Origin: Raillietiella orientalis
Taxonomy: Eukaryota
NCBI GenBank assembly: GCA_036172245.1
Contig: JAYWIR010000027.1
Span: 434,001-498,000 of the forward strand
Length of the DNA: 64,000 bases
Direction: 5' to 3'
The notes under the pieces are model-generated. The model saw only the letters and a program-made list of their open reading frames with translations. It was not told the origin of the DNA and did not search any database. Shown here in pieces: positions 3,450 to 62,150 of this stretch. The translations under genes and the position numbers were made by a program. Positions within the stretch are counted from its first letter, which is position 1. Each line of letters begins with the position of its first letter.

Positions 3450-4250
3450 GGTTTCAAGGCAACTGACCACTATCATTCTGTGGCGCAATCCTATTTCACA
3501 TCCTAGTTTGGACCGTTTCGTAGCAGTTTGCCCAAGGGCTATAGTGATTGCAACGGCTTCCCGGTATGACATTACACTCTTCCATTTTGGCAACCATCGC
3601 TGCGGCGCCGGTGACAAAGGATGACCAGTGAAGAGGATACGGGCGAGCCTGTAGAAGTGAGAATTCATCTGAACAGGTCCTATGAAGCATCATCGGGGAA
3701 TTGAAGTGTCCCTGAGATGCACGTGCAATCCTGCCACAGTCTGGGACGTTCCAAAATGAGGCATAATTGAATAATGGAATACTAGAGAAATAGTGCAAGA
3801 TTTCTACTGTTTCGGGGGTACATCTCCTGGGGAGTCTCTTCGCAAAGTCGTGACAATGAAGTCTCTCGGTTCGAGGAAGGACCCAGTGCGCTAGCAAGAT
3901 AGCGATGTGCTGATAGAGAAGGGGAAGGACGGAGACCCCACCAGGAAGCCTGTGATCTCGAATGTTTTCGGGAAAATCCCAAGAAACTCGATTCGCCTTT
4001 GTAAGCCCTGAGCAAGAAGATCTTTGGGCGCCAGTCTCTACGTTTTCCATTGAGCGATGGGCTTCTGTGAACCCGCAACACTGCAGGAGAATCATGTTCC
4101 GCTTCCCCCCTCTATAGAAGGGCTCCCATGGTGTCTTCAACGGTCTCGAGATGCGCCCTAGGAAGCAGAGGCTAATGTATTTGACGGTGTTAAGCTGCTT
4201 TCCCCATGGAGCTTGCATACAAGGTTGGAATATCCTTCATCAGTAATAGG
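3450..4250 (-). mobile_element. Decayed L1/Tx1-like non-LTR retrotransposon, ORF2 C-terminal (zf-RVT-like) remnant
   Basis: The minus-strand ORF contains LAHWVLPRTERLH...RCTPETVEILHYF...FW. This resembles the H-x-x-LPT-x-x-RL...CxxC..ET..H...FW signature at the end of L1/Tx1 ORF2. The cysteines are degraded and no RT core is visible. Confidence 0.35.
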
Positions 4251-7200
4251 TACTCCGCAGATTCCGCACAGATGTTCCACTGCTGTATCACTGCCATATG
4301 CAATTTTAAAATGCTCTCTGTGCTTTATCCTCTTTAATTACTTTTATCTATATTTCGACTTGAGATGACATTGACTTCTTCGAACAAACAAGCTAATAGA
4401 GAGATCAATGGATGGAAATAGATGGAGAAATATTAAATATTCGTCTAGCAATTCTCCTTTTTTAAAAAAAAATGATTTCTGACTTTTTTAAAAAAAAGTA
4501 TTATTTATTCATTGCCTCCGACTAGGCCCTTTGCCTGTCATGAACTCAAAAGAGTGAGTTCAAGCTATTCTCGCCAGCTCATTGGAACCCTGGGATCCCA
4601 AGCAACAGGGATGTTCTAAAAGAGCCGGATATTCATTCGCTCTGCTTACTGAGTAAAAAGAAACATCACATACAATAAAGGGATCAGGATAACTAGAAAC
4701 CATCGCAGAAAACGATGATGCCGCCCAACATCCAACAGAGCTTTTCACTCAGTTATGCCAGGCGTTTCTTTTCCAAAAAAAGAAAACAGGCAATGTAGAT
4801 TATTCAATCTACCACTCTTTGAAAAATTCAGGGAAGGAAATAAAAAGAAAACAACTGACTCTCTGGCCGGCTACACAGAAGGGCATTTTGCCACATTCCT
4901 TATTACTGCGGAATTGAGGTGGTCCTTCTCCCCTGCTGATGGGCATCCTCAGTGCTTCAAGACACCGCCATTCTTCTGGCGCAATGCAGGATTCGCGATC
5001 GGGGAATCAGGCGAAAGCCCGTCCCGTGTGGAGCAGCTCCGCAGCAACTCTTTGGCAGCGTCCTCGGGACCAAGTAGAGCATCCGCGAGGCGCTTTAGCA
5101 CGCGCCCAGGTTTACTGCATCTCAGCAGCAGGTACATAAAAGTTCCAATTTCTCCGCAGCCTGAACAGTTCGAGGAGGCTCTTTTCCCCGTCCAGCGATA
5201 TCGCCGCTGAGAGCACGAGAAGTCCCAGTGCACGAACGGCAAAGGTTCTTGTTGCCAGTTGAGGGGAGCGCAGAGCGGTCCAGGTAGAGGGAAGGGATCA
5301 CAGTCCCCGAGGGCGAAAGAGCCAGGTATTCTGCCCAAAAGAGCAGTCCTTTTGCGCGGGCACTGGATGCTGCCGCGTATTCCATTGACTCACCAGTTTC
5401 GTCTCTCCTGCTACGGAGCACGAGATCATCCACCCTGCTGTTGGCCACCGACGTTTTTCTCCCTTGAGGAGGACAGCGCTACGGATGGGAGGAGGGGAGG
5501 CAGTAGCCTGGTCCACTTCTTCCTGTCCCTTTCCTCTCCGCTCCGAGGTTGTGGAGGGGACTATCATGGTTGTATTTGTGCTCATGATGAGGATCCAGGT
5601 ACCCACTGCCCCTTGATGCCAAGCGTACTAGCTTGCGGGACAACAAGAGGTCCACTGATGTTCTTTCCAGTGGGAACCTAAGCGCCTTCGTGCGGCCTCG
5701 AATGCGGGGTAGCAACGACGCCATTCCCTCACAGCCGACTGAGCCTCAGGATTTCGCGCAAAGGCAGGCGCCAAAGCTGCATCCAGTTCTCGGCCATTGA
5801 GGCCATCATCCTAAACTGGAGCTGTAGCTACATCTATAATAGGAGGATGCCGAGTTCTGAATTTCTTCGTGGTGCGACCTGGTCTTTGAAGCAAACCTTT
5901 GTACTGGCGGAGCCCCATTGTGTTTTCCGCTGGAGGCCATCCGTTTTACGCCTCGGCTCATAGGGCGGGAGCGAAGCAAAAAGAAACTGGTAACCGGTAC
6001 CACTAGACAAGAGGTGCCGCTCCGAACTGTGCCAGGAGAAGGTGAGGCGTGCCTCGAGCACCCGTTACTGGATTGTGCTGGTCTCGGATCCGTGTGGGAA
6101 TCTTCCGCAACGGTCCTACAGCTTCCGATGGACAACCTCAGAGACTTAAGCGTGGGATGCAACGTCGCCTGCCGCAACGCTAGCAGCTCTTCACTGCTTT
6201 CGAGGTAGTGGCAGCCTGGAGGGACGCCCAAAGAGGAACGAACGACAGGAACGCCATCCATTTCATGACCTGCTTCATGAGTATCGTGTCGAGATGGCCT
6301 CACCTGGACAGAAATAAAGCGGAACTTGCTGGCATCTTTCAGAGGAAGCAGAGGACGCAATGGAGCAGACCGTGATCCCTTTCCCAGCTCCTTTCCCTCA
6401 GAGATATAAAATTTATTTACTTAGTTTTCTTTTTTTTTTGGTTTGCCTTCCCATTGCTCCCGATGCAGACTTCGATGGTCAACCAGCCGGCATCTCGGTA
6501 CTTGTCTCCAGTTGACTGGACTTGGTAAGACTTAGAGTGCTACTGCTCTTGTTCATTGTTTTTGCCAACACATGCCCTGGATTTACGGGTATTAAGTGCA
6601 GCACATCCCGCTCTTCTCCTTTACGCGTATGGTTTTCATACACCTTCTCAAACTGTCCGCCCGTCCCTCCCACGTAAATGGATGTTTGTTCACCATACGT
6701 TGCCTATTAACTATTATGAATGTCCCGACGATTCGCTTGGTCGAAGCTCGAGTACAAACCAATGGGGAAATTCAGTGGACCCTACAAGACTGATTTACCA
6801 ATGGTGCACGGAACAGAAGCAAAAAGATTCCGCATCAAGTCCTGATGTCTCTGGCCGCCTTTCATTTTGACATCTCCACACTCTTGCAGACAACATCGCT
6901 TCCCAGTTTGGCTTGCAGCGTCCGTCACTACAGCCTCCTGCTTGATCTTTAGCTCGTACCGATACTTGCTCTAACGCTCTTGCGGAGGATTAAAGAATCT
7001 GCTGAGACTTCCTTCTTTTGAATACATGAACTGAGGAGTGCCAGCGAGATTTAGCGTCCCATTATTTCCTTTTCTTTCGGGCAATTTCAGACACTTTCGT
7101 CTGCGAATGTGCTGTGTGTGGCATTTCCTTCGCAGACGTCTTGAAGTACCTTCGGCACCCTGTGGCTTATATGTGCCATTTCTGCACGCTGCCATTCCTC

Positions 7201-13300: not shown

Positions 13301-14608
13301 GTGTCAAAAGTTCATAGTTTGGCAAAGACGAAAAAGCTAGGAATGCTAGATGTAGCAAATAAATACATCATGTATGTTACGAGGTTTAATAACCGGAAAC
13401 AATAAGAACATTGCTGCTCTCTCCTAATTCCCGCTTATCAATCCAATCTTGGGAATTCAGGCCATGGGAGGTTCCAGAACATGAAGCAGAAAAATGTCGA
13501 GAGCAGTTCCAGAGAATAGGTATTTGCTGTCCTGCCCGTTGGCAATTGTATGCGAACAGATCGTTAACGATCGACAGGGATTTTCGCCTCTCCAGAACCA
13601 GTATTTACCAGCATTTCTCGAATTTTGCGGACCAGAACCCATATATTTCATCACATCTCTTTTTTCCTCAAAGCCACCAGGCTTCTAGTTTCGGCTGCTT
13701 GTTTTGGTTGGAGATAGATGGCAATCTTGTCGCGCACTGAGTTTCAAGTTTGACCTAAAACCTACGGTAGGAAGCCAAATCCGTGAAGTTCCCCCCCCCC
13801 CACCCCCTTTTTTTTTTTTGATGCTTGATAGTAGGACGGATTGTGATGTGATGCTGGTGTCTCGTGCATTTGCGCCGTCTTAGCGTAAGCATGCGGAAGA
13901 ATCAGAGATCTCCATTTTATTTCGGGTCATGCTGAAATATGTCCTCTGGCAAGAAGACCAGGGAATTTGCTTCGGCAGTCGATCCTGAAAGTTGCGGATT
14001 TTGAGAGGTCCAGTTTCGGACGTTTCGATTCACAGAAAATGAAGCTGAGGCCAGCGTTTCGTCTGAGCGACTCTGCCCCCCTAATCCAAGGTTCAAGTGA
14101 GGGGGATATGAGGTCGGCAGGAGGTTACGAGATGGCTTGCAGGAGTCTGGCGTCCTACTGAGCCCACAGATGGAGTTTCGAAAGAGATTTCTACAATGAG
14201 AGACGCGTTCCGTGCCGTTTCTGGTGGCGGTCTAGACCAGTCCCCCCCTAAATCTCAACAGAAACTTTCCTTTTCGTGACGCATCCTTGCAAGAGTGCGA
14301 AAAGCGGAGGAAGAGAGAAAAACGGCTCTGTGGATGATGTGCTTCTTCGAGCGCCCGCAAAGAGTCCCCAGGTGGCATTCCCAGATCTATCCCATCGTTC
14401 GTTCTTTCCGAAGAGTGGAGGATCCGATGACGGAGGCCGGCTTTAAGTCGGTGTTGAAAGCTCCTCGCTCTCTCTCATAGCGTCGGGGGTTGTTTGAATC
14501 TCTCCCTCCTCTCCGGACAGGAACAGGAAGCTCAGGCAGGCTGCTGTCCCCTTTCGTGACTCGCTATCAAGGTTCGCTTTATTCTTTTGCTTCCTAGCCC
14601 TCTCCAAG

Positions 14609-17600
14609 CTACTTCTCCAGCATGTGGTACTTTACGTACTGCAGGGCTGCCAGGTACCCCATCTGGGGACGCCGGTCCTTTCCCCTTACGAGTTTATCGA
14701 CCTGGAAAGGGAGCCCTCCGGGCTCCCTGCCCGGAAAGCAGAAGGCCCGTCGCCTACCTCCGAGGACAAGACGATGACTCCCAGCCCTTCCGAAATGGCT
14801 TTCTTGCTTTCCAGGATGTAGGAGTCCGAAACTCCCTTGCAGGCATCCTCGATGACCACCATGCGGTAACCCAGTCTCAGGGCGTCCAGGCAGGTTTCGA
14901 CTGCGAAGAGGTCGCGCGCTGCGCGTCCCCGCCAGGTCTTCCCTCGAGAGGACCTTACCGACGCAGATGTCGTAGGCGACCCCACAGAGGAACACGTCCG
15001 TGATCCCCCTCTCTAGAAGCTCCTGGTGAAGGCTCGCGCCGTTCCTCGTCCGCGCTCCGCTGGAGAATCCCGAGTACGCCTCCACCTCGGGTTCCGTCCC
15101 TTTGTAGATGAAGAGGGCGCCGTCCGCGACCTGCAGGGCGAAGAGGAAGGTCTCGGCGTCGGGAGCGGATGCCGCGTTGGCGCGAGCGAGGTCTCAATCG
15201 GCGACCCGCTTTCCCGGTCCTTCCCGGCAAAGCAACGGCTGCGGCTCCCTTTCCGCGGAGGCGGAGGGGGACTGTTTTTTATTTTTTTTTCCCATCTCCC
15301 CGTTCAGGACGCCACAAGATGATCCTCCGAGGACGGGTCAGTCGCGAGCGTTCCTGAAGGTGGGGGTGGGGGGAACTGCCCAGGCGCAGACCTTCCTGCC
15401 AGGGAACAGCACGGCATCCGCACGCGGGAGAGATGCCGCGCTGAGCGCGCTCGATGGAACACTTAACTTCAAGCCGGGGTGGATCTCGGCCCCCCAGGTG
15501 CCTTGGACGCAGTGCTTCGGCCACATTTTCTGCCGCATCGGAGGAGGCCCGGCGAAGGTCACCGTGTCGTAGAGGGAAACGTCCTCGTAGCTGACCTGCA
15601 AAAAAAAGGGGGTGGGGTGGGGTGGGCGGAAGCAGGACCGGGATGGAACTGCGGGAAGGGAGACGCCTTCTTCCCGGAGTCCCCCCCCCTTCGTCTTTGT
15701 CCTCTCTCGAGAGAAGGGAGGGTGGGGGAATGGAGCGATCTCTGGTCCTTCCCTACCACCGATCCCCGCAGACGCCGAGGGGCAGGACCCGACCCTCGAA
15801 GGCGCGATTCCCGTCTCCTCCCCCCTTGCCCGCCTCAGGGCAAGAACCGCCATCTTCGTCTTGTCCGTTCGGCACCTTCTCCCGCGCCGTCGCTCCGGAA
15901 TCTTCGACCGGGAGGGAGGCTCAGGAGAAAATGGGAGTCCCTGCTCGAGGGGAAGGACGCGGATGGCTCCACACGCAATCCTGGCGCTCCGGAGCAGAGG
16001 TGCGCGCACATGCGACCACACCCGGGAGTGGTCCGCCCCGCCTGGGGACTCCCACGCGAAGGACCTGCCCCCGAAAGGAAGGAGGGGGAGGGAGGGGACC
16101 AACAGAGGCGAAGAGCGCCTGCTGCCATCCCAGGGAAGCTCGCCGGGAAAAGGGGGGGCCCGGAGGATGAGGCAAGGAGCCAGGAGGAGCGCGCGTGGCC
16201 ACTCACAGGACCTGCTCTTCGAGACTCTTCTTCCGGACGAGTCTTCAGGGTTCCCAGCGGGACGAGGACGTCGCTGCGGCGCGCCCGCGGAGGGCGAAGT
16301 CGACAGGGCGGGAGGAGGAAGCGTCCCCCCCCCGCCTTCGTTCCCGCTCTCGAAGATCGGCGCTCAGGGGAAAAGACCCCATCCCCGATCAGCTGCGCGA
16401 ACCGCGGATTCCGTCTCGAAACGGCTCGGAGCTGACGTCACCCGAAAGCGGAGCGCTGTGCGCAGTGACGTCATCGCCGAACAGTGGGACTTTGCGAAGA
16501 GCGCGGAACGCGGCGCTCAGGCGAGTGGGTCCACGGCGCGCAGTTCGAGGGCTGCGTGCGCGTAGCACTCCCCTTCCGCGAGTTTAAACTCCGCGGCGTG
16601 AGTTAAAGGATACAAGGGACGAGGGAGTGTCCAGTAAGGGAGGGGGGGAGGCGTCACGGGGCAGCTGCAGGAACCCCGTCCGTGCTGTTGTGGGCGCGTG
16701 GAGGTTTTCCCTCCCTCCCTCCCTCCTTGATACACTATCCTGGAAGTACCCCGGAAGGTCGACTCCCAATCCCGGCCCCACTCTTCGGGGGCATCCTGTT
16801 TTTGCCAGCTTCCCCCAGTGCCGCCCCCGATCATGAGTCTCCCGAGAGTCATCTTACGGGGGGAATCCGAACCCGCGACGCACCCCCGTTTCTCTGGCGG
16901 CGGCGTCGATCCTTCCCCCCGGGCGGGATTCGAACTCGCGACTACCGCTGCCGCGCGCGGAAAGATCGCAGTCCGGCCTCCATCCTTCCTTTCGGACCTT
17001 CCTCGCCCCTTCCGGCATGCGCCGGAAAAGGTCAAAGCGCGTGACTCTTCCACGTTCCTTCTCTCTCGGCGAAGAAGGGGGGAGAGGGGGAAGCGACGTG
17101 TGGTCAGAGGACTCTCCAGGCGGCGGAGAGAGACCGAAGGACGACGAATCGGACCAACCAGAGACCAACCAGCCCGCAGCATCCGCAGCCCAGCCCCCTT
17201 CTCCCCCCTCTGGGGAGCAACGTCCGGAACAACGGCTTTTAAAGGAGGAAGGGAGGAGTCGCCCCAAAAAGGGCGAGTCGCGGGTTCCAAGACTCGAGGT
17301 CGTTCGCGAGATCACTCCGGATCGTCCAAAGTGACCTCCGGCAGCTCACGTCGCGACGCCCCTCCGGGTCGCCGCCGTTGCCGCTGTCCATCCCAGCCCG
17401 TGGCCAAGGAGGGTCTGCTTGAGCCGCAGCCCACGCTCCGCACTCCGGGATCTCGTGGGGGGATGGGAGGCGGTTCCGGAATGCCACGCGTTCCTCGGCA
17501 ATCTCCCGCCTGACGTCTGGCACTCCTCGCCCGGGGGGGGGGTTCAAGGTGCCAGTAGGATAGTGGCTCGAAGGGACTTCCCGGGACAATAGGGGGGGCA

Positions 17601-20600
17601 CTTGCAGCCGCCGACGGAGCGGTGCGGTGGTTGCTGAAGTCAGTCAAGATTGCCAAGTCTGATCAATGGATGGGAAGTTCACGCGTGCTCAGGACGTGGG
17701 CAGAAGGTGAGAGCAGGAAGGGGCCTTTCGGCTTCCCTGGGGAAGTCCAGATTTCCCCGATGCGATCTTGGGGAGTCTGGTCTCGAAGGAAGAGGAGGGA
17801 AGGGGGAAGATGCCCCGGAGAAGTGAAGGAATCACGTGGGAGCACGCGCGCGCGAGCTGCCGTAGCGCCAGCTGAAGTGGCCCGCGCAAAACCTGCGTCA
17901 CGACGGGACTCAGGTTCGCGCGTAGGCCGGCCGGCAGGGGAAGCACCTTCCTTCGCTCGTCGGGAGCGAGGAGGTTCTTCTCCCCTTCCCCTCCCCGCGC
18001 TCCCGTCATCCCGAACTCCCCGGGACGAGTCAAGGAGCACGGGAAGAAGTTCGGATCCTGGAACGGGATCCCCACGGGAGGCGCCGCAGGATGGGTTCGT
18101 TCCCCTCCGCCCTCCACCCCACCTTCGCACGCATGCGTCCTGAGGCGGGTGGGTGATCAGGACTCCAGAGGGAGTCGACGGCAAGGAGCGTGCGCAGGAA
18201 GGGAAAGGGGGGGAGGGGGGAGTGTGGGTGTCGCGGGTAGGGCGGCACATTTACGTTCTCCGCGGGATCCAGTTCTCTCAACCGGAGGTTTTCCAGGAAA
18301 GAGATGTGATTTTCGGGATGGTAATCCATGGTGTAGACCAGCTTCGCGAAATCATTGCTTTCGATGACGTCATTGATAACGGGGATGATCTGGAAAGCAC
18401 AGGTTTTTGAGGCGGCTAAGACGCGAAAGGCTTGGGGAGGCAACACGCGCGCGCGGCCCCTTCCGCTGCGGAGGGTCAGAAACACGGAAAGCTTTCCCGA
18501 CGTGTTTCGCGCGTCCCTCACCGCCCCCCCGCTACCCCTACTCTTTTTTTTTGCTCTTTGGTGTTCAGTTTCAATCTGCACTTTCCCTCCCACGTGAGGG
18601 TCTCCTTCAAAATCCGGAACAATCATATATATATATAACAACCATATGTGTGTTTATTTCTTAAACATACACATAGACATATACACTATATATATATATA
18701 TATTTGCACATTTATGTTTATATATATATATATATAATCTATAAATATTGATGCATGTCATAAGCATACACATTTATTTTTAATACTCTTTAATATACAT
18801 TAGCAATATAATCAACAACTTATTAATTATATCACCTTATTAATAATACTTAATTGCTGTTCATACTAATATATTACTAATTGCATCATTTTATTAATAT
18901 AAAATGTATGCGAATAAATCTTATATGTTCTCCAGTAATATTACTATTAATAATATTAAACATGAATAACTATGGCTGTCTAAATAAATTTGGTCGTTAA
19001 TCTATGTAGAATAAGCATTTCAATTCATTTTTATAATCTTCATGATTTAATTAATTTTAATTAATCTGTGTATTAATTTAATATATATTAATCTGTGTAT
19101 GAATATATATAAGCACATATCTTTATTTTTATCAGCTTCATGATATACATTAATCCATCTTAATATAAATATATATGTGAACATCTTTACATAAATATAT
19201 ATATATACATGTGAATATGTATAATAATGTATTTATTTTTTTAATCTTTAATACATATATCAATAATAGAATCAACAAATTATGAATTTTGTTAATAAAA
19301 TGTACACCACAGAATCTTAATAAATATATTTATTCATATTGAATAAGTTTGTATGCTAACCTATGTGGAACAAGCGTGTGCGTTTGTTCCCCACGATCTT
19401 CGGGGATTTCGGAGTTTCGAGCGCCACCGCAAGAGGCGCTTCATGCATTGTTTTCCTCAGGAACAAAAGGCGTGCCAGAACTCTCTCGCGTGCCCAACGC
19501 ATGCGGCGAAGAACACCCGAATAAAGCACGTGCGAAGTCCGTTCGTCCGCCATCGTCGCCCTCGCTCGAACCACCACCACCGCCTTCGGGTGGCCCACTT
19601 TGCCGGGTGAGAGGGTTCGCACCGCAAGCCGCGTGGCTACGGCCGCCACGCCCGGCACGGAGCTCCGCGGGCTCGAATACACCCGCAAGGAATCGACGTC
19701 GAGAAGGGACGCGTCGTGGGTCTCGGGCCGCCCTGCGCGAGTCGTTGGTCGGCTGGTGGGCTTCGGTTGCGGCACTGGTACGGCGCTTGTGCGCGGTGAA
19801 GACCGGGCGCCCCGTTGGCTAGCTGGAGGTAAGAGTGGAGACAGGCCTCCGGCGGTGCTTCCAGGAGTCGCCCTAGTCGAGGCACCTTTCCGTACACCAA
19901 GACCATGCAAGCGTGCACACACCATTTGGGGCACCGTCGGTAACTCCACGTGCGTTGCCCGGCAAGATGTGCGAGCAGGTCCTGTGGAGACGCCCGGAAA
20001 TCATCCAATAACGACCACACGCAAGAGTTCCCGTTCGAAATCTCCCCTCCGTATTCCCTCCTCCGACGCACGTATGCACGCTCTCCGGATTATCACAAAG
20101 AAGTCCAGGAATTCGTCCGACCACCACAGGCTTACGCGAGCCACGAAGGAACCCCATCGGCCCAAATGGTCCTAAACTCAGCGCTCTCCGTATGCAGGAA
20201 ACAGAAAGCCTCGAGAAATTGGGCACTCCTGCATTGTCTATACGTGTACATTCGCGAACAGATATGTGTACGCGTTCGAAAGTTTACACACGGACACACA
20301 CATAGACATATACATGTAAACACACAGGATACACGCGCGCACACATAAAATGCGCACGTGTATAGTACATGTACACTACATTTATGCGCATATGTAGTAT
20401 GTACATACATTTGTACACGCACGCGCACATGTGAACTTTACAATTCCAACTTCTTGCTGGGTTCTCTCAGCGCAACTATGTCGAATATGTGTTAACCTGT
20501 AAGTGCAATTTACATATGTCTTTTCCGCGCTATCAGGAAGAAAGTGAATACTCTTTTGCTTATTTTTTCTCCGAGGGATCACTCCGGTTCTCTGATTCAA

Positions 20601-23600: not shown

Positions 23601-26600
23601 CCCTCTATCTCCCACGTATCCCATGTCATTTCCCTCATTTAACTCGTTCACTTGATGTCTATTACCAACATCTACGATTTAGCTCTGTTGCATTAGGGGA
23701 CGATCCGAAAGCTGGACCTCTTCGAATAGTTAAATTTCCAAGGAGACGGCTTGCCAAAACGTACACCTCGGCTATCGCTACTTCTATCAGAGATCGCAAT
23801 GCAGGTGTTCTCTTCTTTTAACCCTTTGAGTGCCATGGACGCGTCTATGGGTTTGGCAAGTGCTTTCACATTGTACACGCGGCACAAATTAGCACTATCC
23901 GTGTTTGAGGTGGACGACGCATCCACTCACGTTCTTACAGTTCCCTTGGCAACGACAGTAAACGAAATTCTATTTTTATATCGGCCAACGATTTCTCTCG
24001 GTGTGGCATGTAATTTGTTATGCCGTTTTTCATCTTTGCGATATCTAGAAAAATGTGAACGAATTTCTTCAAATCATAATCATAACTTTTAAATAAATAA
24101 TATGTGTTTGGAAAAAAATGGAAATATTTCATTTAATGAGGTGTACATAAACAATTACAATGAATGAGCACTTTATGCAGTGAGTCGGTACTTCGATGGA
24201 GCACGCGGTGCGCGAAAAAGCGTTCCGTCCTTCTGTGACTCAACACGGAACGTTTCAATCTGATAAGCTCCGCACCCAAAGGGTTAATACACACAAGAGT
24301 TATTGAAGAAACCATCTTTCAGAAAGGACCAAGTCTTACTTCTAAACCTTAGAGTGCCACGAAACATTCTTTAGTTCCCCGTACGGGAGAGAGGATTCAG
24401 TCACGCCCATTGGGGTGCAAACTTTCTAATCCAAAGACCTGTTCAAGTTGCGTCGCGTCAGCGTTACCAACTTCCTGTTGTGAATCCTCCGAACTGCCAC
24501 TAGCAGACAGAGAGACCATTCCGTCCTAATCGTTTAAGCTGCGGTCTCCGGGACGAAGTACGCTTTCGCAGATCGACTCTCAAGAAACCGCAGGGTTTCC
24601 AGAACGTCCCGAAACGGATGCCTATGTATCGATGATTGTGCCTCCAGAAAATTCTAATTAATTCAGGAAGAAAAAATTCTGGATTCTGGAAACAGAGAAA
24701 TCCAACAGCTCTGGAGACGTTCTCTGCAACGGTTCCAATTCAGTTTGGAGAGCTTCCGAATTTTCACTCGTCGTTGCGCCGCATCAAGAATCGAATTTAT
24801 TGATAAGGGTCGTTGCAAAACAGGAGTGACCGGGGCCATCTCGTGCTCTCTATGAATGTTTCGCCGCTGGCGAAGGGCTTGTCCGCGAGAGGGGCTTCAA
24901 GAGCGAGCGTATTCCTTGTGGATGCAAGGACTTTTGCCTGGCGAGTTCGAACCCGCAGCCTTTCGGTCAGTTCCACGCTAAGCCCTGTTTGCTAGAGGTC
25001 TGACAGTTAGACGGTTCTAAAGGTGGCGGATCTTCTAGCAGCTCGACTGTGTAGGTGTGCGTTCGGTCTTTTTTTTTTTTTTTTAAATCCTTCCTCATTC
25101 TCTCCGGAGGGACACCCTCTGGAAAGGGGTGGTCCTCTCCATTTCAACTTCTCCGAAGGGAACCCGGAAAGGATCCGCTAGCAGGAATTTCTTCTCCGGA
25201 GGGAACCCTCAAGGGAACCGCTCCTCTTCACTCCTCTGAAGAGAACCCCGAAGGGACGCTTCCGAAACTCAGAAGGGACGCTGTAGCCTCCCGCAGGGGA
25301 ATCGCTCTCGCTTGCTTCCTTGCACTCTGTGAAGAGGCGACGACTCGGAGGGTCCCCCCCGCAACGGGGAGGGTCCGCTCCTTTGAACAACTGGAGAGGT
25401 GCCCGTGAGGGCTCCTGCTCCATCTTGAAACCGGAGGGGTCCCCCGGTGAGGGAGATCCGCTCTCCGTTGCACGACCGGAGAGGGAACTCCCCACTCCTT
25501 GATTCCTGGAAGGACCCGAAGGTTGACTCCGGCCCCCATCGGTGGCCTCCGGCTTAAACCACTACCGGTGCCACGCCCGAATGTCTCGGCCAACCAGCGC
25601 CATTGCAGGAGAAACTCGGAACCCAACGATGCAATGGCGTCAGTTTCTGCCGGAGTATTCGAACCCGCGACGCACGGTGCCACACGCGGAAGCCTTAACC
25701 ACAAGGCCTCCGACTGCGTTCGGTCTTTCGGAAAGCGTCCCAGCTAGTGCATCCATATGTCCTGGATCTGTTGATAACCTAACCCAACAACGAAAGCGAC
25801 CGGAGGGGAGGGCAGCATGCATCACGTCGCTACTATGTGCCGCCTGACCTTTTCATCGTATGGTTAAGATTGATTTAGGAGAGGTGCCTAACCGAACCTT
25901 CCACAACATCACTAGATCATTACTCAGAGAATTGCAAAATCCTTGGGTCACAAGGAAATTATCCTGGCAGGTCACCACAAAAACGATTACCGACTTCCCT
26001 CGATTTCTCTCTTTATTTTGTTTTTTGTTTTTTGTTTTTTTTTTCTACTGAAAAAGAACGTGAGATTCCCTTTCCGTTCGCATAATAGAAGCGAGCAAAA
26101 CGAATGCACCTTGAGAAACCTGCAGACGAAGACAAGAACTCGAATGTCGTTTCAGTTACCTGTTCGGCGTCCTGTCCCGCGGGGCAATCTTTCAGAGCCA
26201 GACTCCCTGTCACAAAGTCATTCTGCACATCTACGATGATTAGGGCACACTTTGGATGGCATATCTACCGAATCGCGATGTTTACAGGGAGGAAAAACAG
26301 ATCCGCGGAGCTTACTGTTTGGATCCAAAATGTCCAACAATCCTGAAACTCTGCGCGGCAGATGAAACCATCCTAAAAAGGACCAATTAGAAATTCACAA
26401 AGAAAAACGATACGTGGCTTCCGAGGAAAAAGATAAAAATCGTGCAGATAATTACTCTGTTCCTATCGAAAATGGAAAAGATCTCTGCAAGCTGAACAGG
26501 GTCTAGTTTATACGGCTGCTGTGCACAGTCGCGGAATAGGGCGCTGCATAAATTTGCAAATTCGAGTGGAGACAGTGCGTCGTCCCTATAAAGAAAATTC

Positions 26601-32600: not shown

Positions 32601-35600
32601 CGGCTCATAGTCCAGGGACCTGCGAGGGTCACTTGCACTCCGCCTCGTCCTTGTTTCACAGTTCACCCACCGATCATGACGATGGAATCCTTTTGGGTTC
32701 TTTTCTGTCTTCGCTGTTATTCCTTTCAGCTTTTTTTTGGCTCGTTAAGTACCTCATGAACCGTCGCGCGCCTGGCGGCCCACGCAGCTCTTTGACACTG
32801 TTCCACGCCACCCGAGGGTGCATGTACTTCTTCAAGATAAGGAGTACCTCGGGAGGGGATCGCCCTATGAATCCAGAAAGGGCTCGGAGTCCGTTCCTCT
32901 CACGCCTAGGGAGGGATCCCAGGAATAGAGATCATCTCCACCCTGGTTGTCTCCGAAGGAGAATTTCGATGGGAATCTCATTCCTTATTCTCTCTGGAGG
33001 GACCTTCGGAGGGTCCCTCCGGAGACGCTCCATTTTTTCTTCTGCAGAGGGAACCCGCAAGGAAACCGCTCCTGTTTACTCCTCTGAAGCGAACCCCGAA
33101 GCACGCTTCCGAAATTCAGAAGGAATCTGCTTCTTTGAAGGGATCGGCTCGCTTCTCTGCACTCTCTGGAGAGGTGGCGACACGCCTACTCCATGGAGGA
33201 TCCCCCCGAAATGTGGGTACGCTCCTTTGCACTACAAGGGGGGAACTCCCATTCCTTGATCCCTGGAAGGACCCGAAAGTCGACTTCCGATCCCGGCCAC
33301 TCATCGGGGGCATCCGGTTTCAGCCGCCACCGGTGACGCAGCACCCGAATGGATGTGGACCAACCAGCGTGGTCTCGCGGGAGGAACTCGAACCCACGAC
33401 GCACCCTCATCTCTCGGAGTGGATTCCTTTATAGTATTCGAACCCGCAACGCTTGGAGCCACGGGTGGAGACCGTGTGGCCTCCGACGCGGGCCGGGTTT
33501 GCTGAGTGCCTCTAGCCGCTTCTCGGTCTTTTGTACGAGATCCTACAAGCTCCGACAGTCTCCGGGTGATGCCTTCACGTCACTACCACATACGGAAGAA
33601 GAACTTATCCACGAGAAGCTTGCGGAAGTGGGAGGATGACGAATTCGAGGAGGAAGCTAAGGGACGCCTGACGAAATGAAGAAATCCTTCACGGTGAACC
33701 TTCAACGAGGAAGCAGGTGATGCAAACAAGGATAAGAAGGTCAAGTGGTAATGACCTCCCCCAGAGCGAGTGCCAGCGACCGTAAGGGTGATCATAGATC
33801 TCTGAGATCATGGACAACGAAGGAATGGAGAAGTCTCGCGGAAGTTGAAAGATCTCGAGAATCAAGAGGGACAAGCGTTAGATAAGAAATAGTGTGCTCC
33901 CGCATCCACTGTTTCCATGATGTGCGTTGGAAACATCCGTTAGGCCACCTCCCGTAACGGAAGAGCTTCCAAAATCGTAGGCTGAGTTGAAGAGGCAGGC
34001 GGCGCAGATGGTGGACCCCCCCCCCCCCCCAAGCATTCGTCTGCACCCTCCTCCCTTTCAACACGAATGTAAGAATTTTGAATGAAATTCGTTATGGAGG
34101 CTTTGGATGTCGGTGCAGCTCACAGATCTTCTAGTAAACCGTACTGACTTCCTGGTTGCTTCGCACCGCTGGTGAAACCTCAAGATGGAGAAGTAGTGCC
34201 ATTCAGCCATTTTGGTTTCGTGATTTTCGGCACGGGAAAGGCAACAAAAACCCTGCACATGTTTCGAAGACACACACGTTGGTGAGCATGCCGAAGAGCA
34301 GCTCTTCCTGAGGATTCTGCCCGTAGTCTGCTTCCCCCTGCTATGTCACACACGCGGGAGCAGACCACGTTTTGCAAGTCCGGGATCTCAGGCAACACGG
34401 AGACAGTTCGGGGATAGCAAATGCCACGACGTGTTGGATCTACGACTTACGCAACTTTGTTTCCCTGTGACCTTTTGTTTTCTGTTTCCCAAGGGCTCCT
34501 CGCGCAGAGCGGACATAAACGCAGGGCAGAATCCAAACACCAAAGCGAGACGACAAGATGGCGCATGCCATCACTGTAAGTCAGGCTAGCAAGCAAACTG
34601 TCCTTTGAGGTACGGCTTCATGCTTGCGCGCTTTCGCGGCGTCGCAACTTCTCCAGGAACCTGAGGAGGGGGGTGGAAGATCCGGGGAGGATCTGCTCGA
34701 ATACAAGCGAGTGCGCATCGGAAAGCATCGAGGCGATAGTGAAGATTTCCGCTCGCGGGGGGTCCGCCCGCTCGTCCGTCGACAGGAAAGAGCGTCCCAC
34801 ACACCACACTCGCGCGCGCATCGGATTCTGGGAACTGCTCCTGCGGATGCGTAGGGGTGCGAACGGCGGCAGAAGTAGTGGCACATTTCTGAAACTACCA
34901 GAACCCTCCGGAAGAGCGGGCTGCCACCACGGGGGTGCCCCATATCACCGACAGCCATCCTGACTCTTTGGGAAGATGCCTCCTTTTCTTACTCGGGAGA
35001 CATCTTCCGATTGCACCCATCCTTAGGTCCTGGAACACGCGAGAGCGCCATCTGATCTAGTTGAACTTCGACGACCTTAAGTGATGTTTGGCAGAGAGGG
35101 ACGAGAAAAGAAGGGAAGGAGGTAGAGTGGCACAAAGGAGCTCTTGCAGAAACAACCTTAAGAGCTTCATGGTTTCCCCTTCCCCCCTATTTCTGAAAAT
35201 TCGCATCCGTGGATCTTGGGGAGAGAAGCACGGTCTTTCGACGGTGTAGTTTCACGCCGGATACACTGCAGGAGCTGGGAGCGTGCTGATGGGGAGAGGG
35301 AGGAGAGGGAGACTCCAAAATTCGCGACGGACAGTCAGGACCTGAAAGCTGACTCGAGTATACCACGCACACAACCGTACGGAACACCTTCAAGGGAGAA
35401 GACCACCGCAGCGTGGGAGCAAAACAGCTGGTTCCTGCCGAGCAAATCTGACTGGGGAACCCGAGCCGAGAGCTCCATCCCGAGAAGCATGCGGCAGAGC
35501 CAAAAGACAAGAAATGGAGGAGAGAGCATCCGAATGCGTTCTGAAAGGCAATTGGCGAGATGGCATCCTCCCTTCACGAAGCGCAAGCTTAAAGGAAGGG

Positions 35601-37567
35601 GCGATGGGAAAGCGGGAGAGCGAAGCTCGAGTAGCCCCCGAGAGCAGCACGGGGTTCGCAGGACTGAGGAGGATGACCAAGTTTCAGTAGCACAGGCGAC
35701 AGACTTCCCACGCAGGAAGAGCACAAGGAATCGTGCAGCTCACTACCAAGAAGGGGCAACTGCGTGCGTCTCTGCGGTCGAGAAAGAGATGGAGAGCTAG
35801 CAGGAATCAAGGAGTGGGAGTTCCCCCCTTGTAGTGCAAAGGAGCGTATCCACATTTCGGGGGGATCCTCCATGGAGTAGGCGTGTCGCCACCTCTCCAG
35901 AGAGTGCAGAGAAGCGAGCCGATCCCTTCAAAGAAGCAGATTCCTTCTGAACTTCGGAAGCGTCCCTTCGGGGTTCGCTTCAGAGGAGTAAACAGGAGCG
36001 GTTCCCTTGCGGGTTCTCTCTGCAGAAGAAATTTCTGATAATGGATCCTTTCCGGGTTTCCTCCGCTAAAGAAAAAATGGAGCGTCTCCGGAGGGACCCT
36101 CCGAAGGTCCCTCCAAAGAGAATAAGGAAGGAGATTCCCATCGAAATTCTCCTTCGGAGACAACCAGGGTGGAGGTGATCTCTATTCCTGGGATCCCTCC
36201 CCAGGCGTGAGAGGAACGGACTCCGAGCCCTTTCTGGATTCATAGGGCGATCCCCTCCCGAGGTACTCCCTATCTTGAAGAAGTACACGCACCCTCGGAT
36301 GGCGTGGAACAGTGCTGAAGAGCTGCGAAAACAGCAAAGACAGAAAAGAAGGATTTCCGAACGGACGGTGCTGTTCGTCCATTCCAGCTGCACCTGTTGG
36401 GCTACGGTACTGCCACCAAACCAAGCTGGGAAATGGTGAGAGGAACAAATCATTCAGGAGATCCGGAATCACTCCAAGCAAAAGGAAAGCGAGAGCTGCT
36501 TTCTGCAGCTTGCACAAGGTTTCCTTAACCTGTCCTTAAACTTCAGGGGAATGGGAGGCACGACGTGCCTGGATGAGGGAATCCAGGACGAGCAAGTCCG
36601 GACCGGCAGCGTTAGATGACGTCCAGGAGTCGCCGAGACCCTACAGCAGCAGCGGCAGGCAGACCGAGTCGTAGCACGCAACCCTGCCCCCCCTCCCCCA
36701 GAGCAGAGAGGATGGACCGCACCTTGCAATGGTCTTTCAAAATTGAGGAGCTGCGGCAGGCAGACTGAGCTGTTCCGTCCGAGGAGACCCTGTCGCCGGT
36801 CGAAGGTGAACGAATCTGTTCTTACTTTGACCGGCGGCTCTGAAGCTTGATGAGAAGTCGGTGGAAAGGAGAGCGCGAAAGAGAGCAAACGGAGATTCGG
36901 CACAGAATGGCACTGCCTCCTCGGCACGACTGCCGAAGAACCGAGCGCATCAGAAGCGATGCATCTTTGTCCCGGGCCGACGCCGATTAATTCGACCACG
37001 GAGGATTGGCGGTGCAGCTGACTCAGTCAAAAAAAAAACTTTCCCGCGGCTCAGCGCGGGGGGTGACCCTTGAACACCTATCGTGCGGCGGTTCACCAAT
37101 AACGAGGAAGACGAGAAAGGTCGAAGAGAATGCCTCTTTCCTCCAAAAGAAGAAACACACCATGTTCTGCAAGGATCCACGAATATCACGGGTGGGTGGT
37201 AGGATCCTCCATCGTGAGGAAAAAGTCGAACAACCGTCAGGCAGTGGGACACAAGAGATTCCGGCAGGTTATTCAAGGAAGACGCTAGGGAGAGCGGGAT
37301 CGAAAAGCGGGAGGTAGGGGCAGGAACAGCAACAGCAACAACGAAACGCATCCCGTAGTAAAAATTCCTCATCATCCAGTGCTCGCAGCTGCACTTTTCT
37401 TTTTTGACCCGGGCGAGATAAGTATGGCGGGGATCTGGGACCGGCACGCCCCATGCGAAGAGACCCCTCGGTCAAAAATACACCGATTTCCCTTACCTGT
37501 CGCTGTCAAACAGGCGCAAGCACATTTCAGCATCCAGAGATCCTGGATCTGTGGGCACGTCCTCCAT
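14609..37567 (-). CDS. Naam: Nicotinamidase (isochorismatase family) with N-terminal EF-hand pair, 344 aa
   Basis: Exons: 37497-37567 (MEDVPTDPGSLDAEMCLRLFDSD), 26456-26585 (DDALSPLEFANLCSALFRD...IFDRNR), 26316-26372 (DGFICRAEFQDCWTFWIQT), 26160-26264 (ICHPKCALIIVDVQNDFVTGSL...), 18255-18389 (...YTMDYHPENHISF...), 15467-15595 (...GPPPMRQKMWPKHCVQGTWGAEIHPGLK), 14959-15130 (...YKGTEPEVEAYSGF...CGVAYDICV), 14758-14900 (ETCLDALRLGYRMVVIEDACKG...), 14609-14701 (...GKDRRPQMGY...*). Intron phases are all compatible and the total is 1035 nt. The catalytic D-K-C triad and metal ligands (DxH, PKHC) are present, and the architecture matches insect Naam. One donor is non-canonical (see findings). Confidence 0.93.
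16724..16981 (-). mobile_element. Partial copy (5' portion) of the tRNA-derived SINE family
   Basis: Shares ctccttgat..cctggaag.acc..gaaggtcgact..cccggcc..actc.tcgggggcatcc with 33250-33315. Has two B-box-like motifs (plus-strand atccgaacccgcgacgcac and ggattcgaactcgcgac) and ends at ggcctcc like the other copies. Confidence 0.7.
18620..19345. repeat. Extremely AT-rich low-complexity tract with (TA)n runs
   Basis: Multiple (TA)n runs and a degenerate direct repeat of about 55 bp (atttatttt..aat.cttt.aata..cat...caat...aatcaacaa.ttat.aatt) near 18772 and 19231. Confidence 0.85.
19635..19870 (+). mobile_element. Divergent copy of the SINE 5' region
   Basis: gcgggctcgaatac...aaggaatcgac..cgaga...gcgtcgtggg...cttccagg is colinear with the reverse complement of 33260-33450. 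Confidence 0.5.
20240..20432. repeat. (CA)/(TA)/(CG) mixed microsatellite
   Basis: Alternating purine-pyrimidine tract (acacacggacacacacatagacatatacatg...). Confidence 0.8.
22900..23165 (-). mobile_element. Possible decayed APE-type endonuclease fragment (LINE or Helentron origin)
   Basis: The minus frame reads RVDALESHLKQEDSLTKELAGVCILSET*SD...IPKR*DGSGCGIS. This resembles the APE 'lcLsETW' and 'R.GGGV' motifs, but it has in-frame stops. Confidence 0.25.
24900..24985 (-). mobile_element. tRNA-like head of a second SINE type (fragment)
   Basis: Minus strand ...gaccgaaaggctgcGGGTTCGAACTCgccaggc contains a Pol III B box, but no intact cloverleaf could be folded. Confidence 0.35.
25072..25714 (-). 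mobile_element. Full-length tRNA-derived SINE (about 640 bp) with poly(A) tail and 14-bp TSD
   Basis: On the minus strand it starts GTCGGAGGCCTTGTGGTTAAGGC (A box, 25692-25708), has B box GGGTTCGAATAC (25655-25666) and ends in an A-run (plus T-run to 25084). The identical TGCGTTCGGTCTTT flanks both ends (25058-25071 and 25715-25728). It lies in Naam intron 4. Confidence 0.9.
29062..30091 (+). mobile_element. Internally deleted piggyBac (PGBD-like) element
   Basis: TTAA|CCCCTAGCATCCTAG ... TTGGGACGTTAAGGG|TTGA gives imperfect TIRs and a TTAA target with one mutation. The frameshifted transposase N-terminus shows an acidic stretch, DPIDSPHLFFVRTLLEHIAERTD, TTELQAFMG...TGVYW and RFLRSED, then jumps to a C-terminal RKQFL motif. 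The catalytic DDD core is missing. Confidence 0.8.
31780..32110 (+). mobile_element. Decayed LINE ORF2 endonuclease fragment
   Basis: LLRGNMAAHEVRWGTSAENFGR resembles the APE motif il.GDfNAHh..WGs...n.rG, and is preceded by CGYVARG and PP motifs in the expected order. Confidence 0.35.
32690..33487 (-). mobile_element. Long variant of the tRNA-derived SINE
   Basis: Same 5' end (GTCGGAGGCC at 33487), two B boxes (33434-33445 and 33385-33395) and the same hairpin body as 25072-25714. It has a 3' extension of about 280 nt including an A8 run (32731-32738). No TSD was found. Confidence 0.85.
35801..36350 (+). mobile_element. 5'-truncated copy of the long SINE variant, inverted relative to 32690-33487
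   Basis: Near-identical reverse complement of 32783-33266. The ORF track independently shows the same peptides on opposite strands (e.g. STSGGDRPMNPERARSPFLSRLGRDPRNRDHLHPGCLRRRISMGISFLIL). Confidence 0.9.
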
Positions 37568-61490: not shown

Positions 61491-62150
61491 TTATCGCATT
61501 GGCGTATTTGGAAGTTTGGGTTCAAGGCGGGCCGGGATCGTTCCTCTCATCTGGGCGTAATCGTTCATCTTCCTGAGGATGTAGCGATACCTCCAGGATG
61601 GGACCCTACGGCAGCTCCTGATCCCGATCTCCCTCATTAGCAGGACTTTCAGAGTCTCCCATGTCGGTACTCTTCGTCCAGATGTGTGCATCTTTGCCCT
61701 TCTGATCACAATTGCTGTGACGAAGAGGGCAAGCGTGGTTCGAACCATCGGGTTGTACAGTTGGACGTTTCGACTCTCCTGAAACAGACCCCCCAGAATT
61801 TTCGCCTTCACGCTTCTCCGCAGCCCAGTCCCCGCCTTCACCGCCTGCCAATCCGGTAGAAGCGTGGGGCGGGTGAACACATAGAGCTGTTCTCTTCCGC
61901 TCCACATGCCTTGCAGCGTCCGTCCTGTATGTTGCCGGTGCAGTGTTGCAGTCTCGAGACAGCTAGGATCCCTCCGTAGAGAACAACAGGAGCTCGTCCT
62001 GGGTGTCCGGGGGAAGGTCACTCCTCCGGAGTGCAGCCCCGACCGCCTGCACGTTTGTGTGCGCAAGTCCGCAGAGGCTCCAGGCTGCATCGAGGGCGTC
62101 GTCATCTTGATGTTTCTTCCTTGGTACTGACTTTCGTCATCAGCAGCCAA
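61491..62150 (-). mobile_element. Decayed L1/Tx1-like retrotransposon ORF2 3' end (zf-RVT/CCHC region)
   Basis: Across two frameshifts it reads AAWSLCG...ALRRSDLPPDTQDELLLF / GILAVSRLQHCTGNIQDGRCKACGAEENS / YVFTRPTLLPDWQAV...KILGG. This matches the LPP..D....GIL...RL...CxxCG.EE...F..P.L..W pattern. Confidence 0.5.

What the first reader, a model, noticed from the sequence alone, without database searches (positions are those of the whole stretch)
25072..25714. SINE whose body is a modular array of bulged hairpins: candidate undescribed structured Pol III RNA
Seen on the sense (minus) strand: after the tRNA-like A/B-box head, a module GGAG-(C/A)-GG-[variable stem-loop]-CC-CTCC recurs about five times, at plus coordinates 25431-25467, 25348-25381, 25198-25224, 25155-25180 and 25106-25140. 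The basal stem with a bulged base is kept while the apical hairpins differ yet still pair (TCTCCC/GGGGGA, CCCC/GGGG, CCCT/AGGG, ACCC/GGGT). Two cUUCGg tetraloops (near 25245 and 25515) occur in the sense orientation. Whole modules are gained or lost between copies: one is present at 25155-25180 and about 36030-36070 but absent from the 33 kb copy. Established: cUUCGg is an extra-stable RNA loop, and known SINE body domains (CORE, V, Deu, Ceph, Meta) are not described as tandem bulged hairpins as far as I know. Inference: selection on RNA structure, such as a multivalent protein-binding scaffold. The perfect 14-bp TSD suggests recent mobility.
Basis: partly seen in the sequence, partly recalled or inferred. 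Interest (0 to 1): 0.7.

Follow-up and report, generated by a model that had tools for sequence, protein, structure and literature searches.

The report
Hairpin-array retroposon with a master gene
This is a dead, shortened copy of a long hairpin-rich RNA that has been pasted many times into an animal genome, and the newest copies trace back to one source locus that looks like a real RNA gene, which raises the testable possibility that the host keeps this RNA for a purpose.

Summary
The flagged stretch is real but incomplete: a dead, 3'-shortened retrocopy (nt 7-646) of a ~1,080-nt tRNA-Arg-headed element with roughly 4,000 candidate places in this invertebrate genome. The full RNA has about twelve related bulged hairpins, an A-rich stretch and a terminal hairpin with a U-run. 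The scan noted this family before on other DNA. None of the earlier notes I saw names a source locus. Young copies form a graded ladder ending at one locus (C6:5519597-5520685). It has no poly(A) or target duplication, a T5 terminator, and a flank resembling one U6 gene's promoter. Along source lineages, substitutions spare the hairpins by folding energy (z -1.6 to -5.1, unpicked), while copies decay neutrally. Pair-by-pair covariation and strand-specific wobble tests failed, and the source evolves at about the neutral rate, so selection on RNA is likely, not shown. Best reading: an over-long SINE-like family fed by a long-lived master gene, built like BC1/ID and copied by an L1-type reverse transcriptase. 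A host-useful scaffold RNA is possible (about 25%). No expression data were available. The partner LINE was not found, and Dfam/SINEBase sequences could not be searched.

The parts
25715..25728 (-). 5' target-site duplication, 14 bp
   Evidence: found again by script
25085..25714 (-). retrocopy body: nt 7-646 of the 1,078-nt young-subfamily consensus plus three T
   Evidence: 597 of 626 aligned bases identical; other copies run about 430 nt further
25640..25714 (-). tRNA-like head, best match tRNA-Arg(CCT) of the same genome; refolded as a long hairpin (25679-25714)
   Evidence: 42 of 66 columns identical for the young consensus and 52 of 78 for the oldest (counted from the alignments); 0 of 200 shuffles reached the score; 30 of 62 tRNA hits compared; fold
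25693..25703 (-). A-box-like motif
   Evidence: sequence, aligned to the tRNA D-arm region; box names recalled
25655..25665 (-). B-box-like motif
   Evidence: sequence, aligned to the tRNA T-arm, among the best conserved columns; box names recalled
25597..25673 (-). two related hairpins H2 and H3; H3 looks like a duplicate of the T-arm unit
   Evidence: match of H3 to tRNA not significant (p 0.11)
25537..25583 (-). hairpin H4, holds the one clean double compensatory change (T-A to C-G) between subfamilies
25508..25530 (-). module A (UUCG/UCCG loop in the consensuses; damaged in this copy)
25478..25498 (-). module B, bulged hairpin
25432..25467 (-). module C1, bulged hairpin
25346..25381 (-). 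module C2, a duplicate found only in the young subfamily
25241..25317 (-). module E and small hairpins F and G (G has the CTTCGG at 25248-25253)
25197..25224 (-). module H, bulged hairpin
25153..25182 (-). module I, gained and lost between copies
25102..25141 (-). module J, stem lengthened on both sides in the young subfamily
25072..25087 (-). T3 followed by A13: the same kind of end as full-length copies, but 430 nt early
   Evidence: compare ends
25058..25071 (-). 3' target-site duplication
32678..33493 (-). older copy of the same family (intermediate subfamily), ends at the CAUC site, no poly(A)
35801..36340 (+). older copy lacking its 5' part, 88% identical to the 33-kb copy
16715..16981 (-). 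5' fragment of the oldest subfamily
19618..19869 (+). very worn fragment of the family (62% identity)

Best explanation
The window holds a dead retrocopy of a long SINE-like RNA whose young copies come mainly from one long-lived source gene (L260, G000 C6:5519597-5520685, minus strand). Steps: (1) RNA polymerase III transcribes the source from internal A/B boxes plus an upstream TATA-like flank and stops at a T5 run behind a terminal hairpin, giving about 1,090 nt (inferred). (2) The RNA folds into a string of short bulged hairpins that arose by tandem duplication of one unit (duplication shown; fold predicted). (3) An L1/Tx1-type reverse transcriptase copies it, either from an A-tail added after the U-run or by priming inside single-stranded A-rich linkers (insertion signatures shown; enzyme inferred). 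(4) Copies then decay neutrally (shown), while the source lineage keeps the hairpins (shown by energy tests only), most likely because a compact, stable, full-length RNA is needed for it to persist and be copied (inferred). The focal copy came from an RNA that ended early at a short U-run, got an A-tail and was inserted with a 14-bp duplication (inferred).
For: About 3,700-4,300 first-look candidates; 202 non-redundant copies in four age classes forming a ladder. Full-length copies end in a hairpin, 1-9 T and, in 38 of 46 distinct ends, an A-rich tail, often with A-started TSDs. Of the 40 best hits to the focal copy, 14 reach the terminal hairpin (one across an internal deletion), 15 stop in A-rich linkers, 3 at the CAUC site and 8 earlier. 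All 59 derived alleles of L260 are shared with other copies in a continuous gradient from 98% to 0%, and copies sharing more have fewer private changes (Spearman -0.67, n 22; -0.48 over all copies); L260 has branch length 0.000 at the tip. L260 has no poly(A) or TSD, a single-copy upstream flank, a TATA-like word at -30 as in 14 of 30 tRNA genes but only 2 of 57 young copies, itself included, and a -32..-1 flank matching the best U6 gene (score 23; 0 of 98 other copies, 0 of 30 tRNA genes, 1 of 5000 random stretches). The terminal hairpin is whole in 2 of 90 older copies, so it is ancestral although most old copies lack it. No internal T4 run in any of four consensuses. Energy tests. Neutral decay of copies.
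Against: No expression data. The ladder alone cannot tell one lasting locus from a chain of successive source copies. 30 of the young loci were recruited with L260 as query. Other young sub-lineages exist (L136/L214/L139, L130/L135), so L260 is not the only source. The promoter match is post hoc, holds for one U6 gene only (score 9 for the second, best 15 for RNase MRP), and no shared PSE was found. A young copy (L265) also lacks poly(A), though it has a degenerate TSD. Covariation and wobble-asymmetry tests failed; antisense folds are kept as well as sense folds. 5 of 40 control copies also score below -2 in the test where L260 scores -2.8. No partner LINE: the 30 best RT hits are a Tx1-like family in tandem arrays without clear poly(A), and no tail homology was found.
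Confidence: 0.55

Rival explanations
1. The source locus is a host-kept non-coding RNA gene (BC1/BC200-like): a Pol III RNA with a protein-binding hairpin array, an A-rich stretch and a unique 3' stem, and the family is its cloud of retropseudogenes.
For: If one fixed locus is the source, competition among copies cannot explain why its structure is kept, so selection would have to act on the host (inference). Native-gene flanks at L260; 3' stem retained through all age classes; same three-part build as BC1 (PMC1978531, passages); 3'-short copies primed in A-rich loops resemble tailless retropseudogenes of cellular RNAs (PMC5322556, passages).
Against: L260 carries 59 derived changes in about 1,040 sites, as many as dead copies of that age, and its paired sites change nearly as often as unpaired ones (20 of 474 versus 28 of 524). 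Modules are gained and lost freely. Several sources are active. No relatives and no RNA data to test it.
Confidence: 0.25
2. An ordinary quasi-oligomeric SINE with serial source copies; the hairpins come from duplication of a palindromic unit and are patched by mutational processes (template switching, slippage in C and G runs), with little or no selection on RNA structure.
For: Units are homologous (mean pair score 22.6 versus 13.5 +/- 1.0 shuffled), so shared bulges and UUCG loops need not be independent. Strand-specific tests are null. Many stem changes are length changes in C/G runs on both sides. UUCG loops were lost in the O1 subfamily and one in L260.
Against: Palindrome correction should erase bulges, yet a 5'-strand bulge persists in 9 of 12 (young), 9 of 11, 8 of 11 and 4 of 10 modules. 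CC-UNCG-GG occurs 2-6 times on the sense strand and never on the antisense strand of five sequences, and loops in mixed-sequence stems fit the RNA tetraloop register. Substitutions avoid paired sites on the branch to the young subfamily (43 versus 62 +/- 5).
Confidence: 0.15
3. A highly derived known housekeeping RNA (7SK, telomerase RNA) or a ribozyme-bearing retroelement.
For: U6-like flank, terminal hairpin with U-run, one stem with paired GAUC words (module L).
Against: No Rfam family reaches its threshold on the window, on a full-length copy or on L260; tRNA-like head; no TTAGG-template hexamer and no hammerhead core followed by a fitting GAAA in L260 (motifs recalled). A genome search with Arthropod_7SK found nothing anywhere, so it neither places nor excludes 7SK.
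Confidence: 0.05

Closest known systems
tRNA-derived SINEs, incl. the quasi-oligomeric CHRS family (SINEBase, PMC3531059; Definitions section and passages read, supplements not available)
   Same: tRNA-like head over 60% identity in over 60 nt, interspersed, far more than 100 copies, body of unknown origin, internal tandem duplication of a unit, subfamilies.
   Different: 1,078 nt against 75-662 nt for the 175 listed families; repeat unit is a ~40-nt bulged hairpin, not a ~20-nt motif; own terminal hairpin and terminator; most copies are short at the 3' end rather than the 5' end.
Rodent BC1 RNA gene as master of ID SINEs (PMC1978531, passages read)
   Same: tRNA-derived 5' domain refolded into a long stem-loop, A-rich region, non-repetitive 3' part, one locus feeding a retroposon family.
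   Different: BC1 is 152 nt with no hairpin array; its expression and function are shown, here neither is; many young copies here do include the 3' stem.
Tailless retropseudogenes (PMC5322556, abstract and passages read)
   Same: 3'-truncated copies primed at single-stranded A-rich sites with microhomology to the target and a TSD.
   Different: Described in therian mammals with L1; here an invertebrate, and the focal copy itself has an A-tail at its truncation point, which that paper did not find for 5S or U2.
Plant SB1 SINE RNA (PMC2408557, passages read)
   Same: tRNA-derived SINE RNA that has left the cloverleaf for stem-loops with bulges; the authors propose selection on structure through dsRNA-binding proteins.
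   Different: Three stem-loops, not about twenty; no duplicated module.
7SK snRNA (PMC8406779, passages read)
   Same: U6-type upstream promoter, 3' hairpin, retropseudogenes.
   Different: 300-400 nt, no tRNA head; no covariance-model match here.

Membership tests
tRNA-derived SINE (SINEBase definition) | Interspersed, at least 100 copies | tested here: met
   202 non-redundant copies collected; about 4,000 first-look candidates
tRNA-derived SINE (SINEBase definition) | At least 60% identity to a tRNA over at least 60 nt | tested here: met
   42 of 66 and 52 of 78 columns against the genome's tRNA-Arg(CCT); 30 of 62 tRNA hits compared
tRNA-derived SINE (SINEBase definition) | Short (under 700 bp in the definition, under 1 kb as working limit) | tested here: not met
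   young consensus 1,078 nt; older ones about 750-800 nt up to the CAUC site
tRNA-derived SINE (SINEBase definition) | Retroposition marks (tail, TSD), non-coding | tested here: met
   only short ORFs overlap
tRNA-derived SINE (SINEBase definition) | [quoted passage not shown] | not testable with these tools
   boxes present, no internal T4 run; no RNA run was listed
tRNA-derived SINE (SINEBase definition) | Depends on a partner LINE | tested here: inconclusive
   Tx1-like and RLE-like elements present, no tail homology in 40 RT loci of 3,358 candidates
tRNA-derived SINE (SINEBase definition) | Made from SINE copies, not pseudogenes of a cellular RNA | tested here: inconclusive
   ladder ends at a gene-like locus, but other young sub-lineages exist
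Described SINE families and central domains (CORE, V, Deu, Ceph, Meta) | Sequence match to the family or domain consensus | not testable with these tools
   no SINEBase or Dfam library; SINEBase supplements unavailable
BC1-type master RNA gene | One locus at the tip of a gradient of derived alleles | tested here: met
BC1-type master RNA gene | Native Pol III flanks, no insertion marks | tested here: met
   promoter match post hoc and to one U6 gene
BC1-type master RNA gene | Slower evolution than dead copies; orthologous locus kept | tested here: not met
   overall rate about neutral; orthology not testable, no relatives held
BC1-type master RNA gene | Abundant discrete transcript with a host function | not testable with these tools
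   no RNA run was listed
Conserved structured RNA | Significant pair covariation | tested here: not met
   40 of 101 versus 439 of 1131 pairs kept, p 0.92; register shifts in C/G runs blunt this test
Conserved structured RNA | Changes spare the fold more than chance | tested here: met
   equally true for the antisense strand
7SK / any Rfam 15 family | Covariance-model match at the gathering score | tested here: not met
   best hit NrsZ 32.6 bits on the wrong strand against a threshold of 76.9
MITE | Terminal inverted repeats and short fixed TSD | tested here: not met
   ends are a tRNA-like head and a T/A tail; TSDs vary from 7 to 19 bp

The most novel reading that the evidence does not exclude
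The locus at C6:5519597-5520685 is an undescribed, host-kept ~1.1-kb Pol III RNA gene: a tRNA-born scaffold of about twelve equivalent bulged hairpins (multivalent sites for one protein, for example a dsRNA-binding or RNAi factor), an A-rich stretch and a 3' stem. It would be an independent invertebrate parallel of BC1/BC200, and its thousands of dated retrocopies would be a fossil record of how the RNA's structure evolved step by step.
Probability: 0.25. Interest if true: 0.8.

Novelty: new variant of a known kind. Interest (0 to 1): 0.5.

Why it matters
Source genes of SINE families are rarely pinned down, and the question of whether SINE RNA structure is under selection is hard to test. Here one candidate source locus, a graded series of its past states and a neutral control (dead copies) lie in one genome, so expression, structure and function can be tested at a named place. 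If the locus is long-lived and its fold is kept, selection must act on the host, which would make it a new large structured RNA. If not, it is still longer than any family in the SINEBase paper and unusual in build.

Tried and rejected
Rfam: nothing at gathering score on the window, and only chance-level hits on a full-length copy and on L260. ARAGORN finds no tRNA in the window. No match in phage records or, with two patterns, in metagenome contigs. Arthropod_7SK genome search rang nowhere, controls included. Pair-level covariation and G-U versus A-C tests were null; within-subfamily shared variants gave only a weak signal (9 of 17 frequent stem variants keep pairing). Sense versus antisense energy difference not significant. 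A DNA mini-hairpin reading (C-GNA-G on the cDNA strand, recalled) has overlapping sequence needs; mixed-sequence stems in modules A and E fit the RNA tetraloop register better, but this rests on two modules. Hammerhead and telomerase-template motifs (recalled) not found in L260; an HDV-like fold was considered by eye only and does not fit. No shared PSE among two U6 genes, RNase MRP and L260. No LINE 3' end matching the tail. Taxon: the protein search with a Nup205 piece gave nothing; representatives at about 50% identity are insects, a sea spider, a frog and a hemichordate, so 'bilaterian, probably arthropod' only. Eight literature searches listed no paper on such an element; the library lacks most subscription journals. 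A tool count of pairs on alignment A1 was not obtained. Rows dropped: 31 of 202 copies under 430 nt were left out of the tree, 3 more out of the subfamily consensuses; 40 of 61 eligible copies served as controls.
Full report
What is in the window. The stretch folds better than its shuffles (z -4.0). Four more copies of the same family lie in the window, at 16.7, 19.6, 32.7 and 35.8 kb. The genome is 210 Mb in 491 contigs. A Nup205 gene at 49-58 kb has best named relatives near 50% identity among insects, a sea spider, a frog and a hemichordate, so the host is a bilaterian animal, probably an arthropod.

The element is longer than flagged. Searches of the own genome gave 3,727, 4,290 and 4,178 first-look candidates, 40 scored each time. 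The best relatives start 6 nt earlier and run about 430 nt further than the focal copy. I collected 202 non-redundant copies of 150 nt or more; 171 of at least 430 nt form a ladder of four age classes: OO (48 copies), Om (18), O1 (24) and the young Y (78), three left unassigned. The Y consensus is 1,078 nt and 60% G+C. Its order is: tRNA-like head refolded as a long hairpin; three more head hairpins; about twelve modules with a purine-rich 5' basal strand, a bulge and a variable upper stem; an A-rich stretch; a CAUC site; a terminal hairpin and a T-run. The head best matches the genome's tRNA-Arg(CCT) among 30 tRNA loci tested, above all 200 shuffles. The modules are homologous to each other. 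No consensus has an internal T4 run (2.7 expected in Y, P 0.05).

How copies were made. Of the 40 best hits to the focal copy, 14 reach the terminal hairpin, 15 stop in A-rich linkers, 3 stop at the CAUC site and 8 stop before nt 770. Full-length ends have 1-9 T, and 38 of 46 are followed by an A-rich tail; TSDs are 7-19 bp and usually start with A. Internally ended copies often share bases with their TSD, as described for tailless retropseudogenes (PMC5322556, passages). Older copies differ: 18 of 24 O1 copies stop at the CAUC site with no poly(A) and mostly no TSD. Yet 2 of the 90 older copies carry the whole terminal hairpin, so it was part of the source RNA throughout. The focal copy ends in T3 plus A-tail at nt 646, where the older O1 and OO consensuses have a T3 run; early termination followed by tailing is the simplest reading (inference). 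The 30 best reverse-transcriptase hits are one Tx1-like family in tandem arrays with a fixed junction, and RLE-like elements also occur (clade names from recalled motifs). No LINE tail matches the element, so the partner is unknown.

A candidate source gene. One full-length locus, L260 (C6:5519597-5520685, minus), ends in five T with no poly(A) and no TSD. A copy 100 kb away is 99.7% identical over 1,033 nt with unrelated flanks. In a tree of 95 Y copies L260 sits at the tip of a nested series with branch length 0.000. All 59 of its derived alleles occur in other copies, the shared fraction runs continuously from 0.98 to 0, and copies that share more have fewer private changes (Spearman -0.67 in the 22-copy clade, -0.48 overall). 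Thirty loci were recruited with L260 as query, which enriches sharing but should work against that negative trend (inference). Its upstream 405 bases are single-copy. It has a TATA-like word at -30, as 14 of 30 tRNA genes but 2 of 57 Y copies do. Its last 32 upstream bases resemble those of the best-scoring U6 gene more than any of 98 other copies, 30 tRNA genes or all but 1 of 5,000 random stretches. This test was designed after seeing the match, and the second U6 gene and RNase MRP match weakly. Other young sub-lineages show that more sources exist. The focal copy shares 5% of the L260 alleles and belongs to an early Y branch.

Is the structure under selection? Dead copies give the control: in stems C-to-T and G-to-A occur about equally and stems mutate nearly as often as loops. 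Between subfamily consensuses, placing the observed substitutions at random costs far more folding energy than the real ones: z -5.1, -3.0 and -7.5 for modules I delimited, and z -3.4/-2.1, -2.2/-1.6 and -3.6/-5.1 in both directions for whole elements without picking (30 simulations each). Broken ancestral pairs are 50 against 73.7 +/- 6.8 expected. From the Y consensus to L260, z is -2.8 to -3.0; 40 control copies average -0.4 (sd 1.1), one is lower and five are below -2. Several stems gained or lost pairs on both sides at once, and the bulge stays on the 5' strand in most modules. Against: changed pairs are kept no more often on source branches than in dead copies (40 of 101 versus 439 of 1131, p 0.92); G-U outcomes do not beat A-C (15:10 versus 300:288, p 0.42); the antisense strand scores as well as the sense strand; only one clean double compensation was seen. 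CC-UNCG-GG is sense-only (2-6 versus 0), but the loops descend from one unit and some were lost. L260 evolves at about the neutral rate (20 of 474 paired, 28 of 524 unpaired sites). So the hairpins are kept in the source lineage, by avoidance of stems and re-pairing; that this acts on RNA is likely, not shown.

Comparison. It works like a tRNA SINE fed by a master gene, with the three-part build of BC1 (PMC1978531, passages). It meets the SINEBase copy-number and tRNA-identity criteria and fails the length criterion; listed families are 75-662 nt, and CHRS is the precedent for an oligomeric body (PMC3531059, Definitions section and passages). Stem-loop folds with bulges are reported for tRNA SINE RNAs, with selection through dsRNA-binding proteins proposed (PMC2408557, passages). 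No Rfam family fits. Eight full-text searches listed no description of such an element. Dfam and the SINEBase sequences could not be searched; the SINEBase supplements, which I could not see, may bear on novelty. Earlier notes of this scan describe the same family on other DNA and mostly find selection unproven; none of the notes shown names a source locus.

Verdict. New variant of a known kind. Best reading: long SINE-like family with a long-lived, structure-keeping source gene (0.55). Host-kept scaffold RNA 0.25; mutation-maintained hairpins 0.15; disguised known RNA 0.05. Interest 0.5: the flagged copy itself is dead, but the family and its candidate source make a sharp test possible.

Noticed in passing
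L260 (G000 C6:5519597-5520685, minus): Candidate source gene of the family: no poly(A) or TSD, T5 terminator, U6-like upstream flank; the bases after its T-run also resemble those after the best U6 gene.
   Followed up: yes
L293 (G000 C49, about 252.4-253.2 kb, plus): Only O1-subfamily copy with the whole terminal hairpin and T4, no poly(A) or TSD: possible former source of that subfamily.
   Followed up: partly
L250-L255 (e.g. G000 C26:2878500-2886500): Abundant Tx1-like LINEs with long open ORF2 sit in tandem arrays about 5.6 kb apart and share a fixed junction right after the AATAAA, suggesting insertion into each other's 5' ends.
   Followed up: partly
L256, L257 (G000 C30, C81): RLE-type (NeSL/Utopia-like, recalled motif) non-LTR elements, also in tandem.
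   Followed up: no
G000: 48 U6 matches over the cut-off; two look like true genes, at least one other has an A-tail, so small Pol III RNAs are retroposed often in this genome.
   Followed up: partly
window 61518-62423, minus: 3' remnant of the Tx1-like ORF2 (30% identity to an intact relative).
   Followed up: no
window 49035-58037, plus: Nup205 gene with long exons and very short introns; only about 50% identical to its best relatives, so a poorly sampled animal lineage.
   Followed up: partly
window 14600-18650, minus: Exons that look like a nicotinamidase (recalled motif; Pfam gave no hit on the two frames tested), with the oldest-type copy of the element in a GC-rich intron.
   Followed up: no
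L060, just after the CAUC site: The copy continues with an exact reverse complement of the element's last 17 bases, hinting that the terminal hairpin arose by fold-back duplication.
   Followed up: no
L036, L047, L028/L209, L137: Several pairs of family copies lie close together, some in inverted orientation.
   Followed up: no
L201, 3' junction: A truncated copy is followed by TTAGG-like repeats, the arthropod telomere word (recalled).
   Followed up: no
L299 (G000 C1:9867570-9867839, minus): RNase MRP gene with a TATA-like word and a 9-base upstream word shared with the L260 flank at different spacing.
   Followed up: partly
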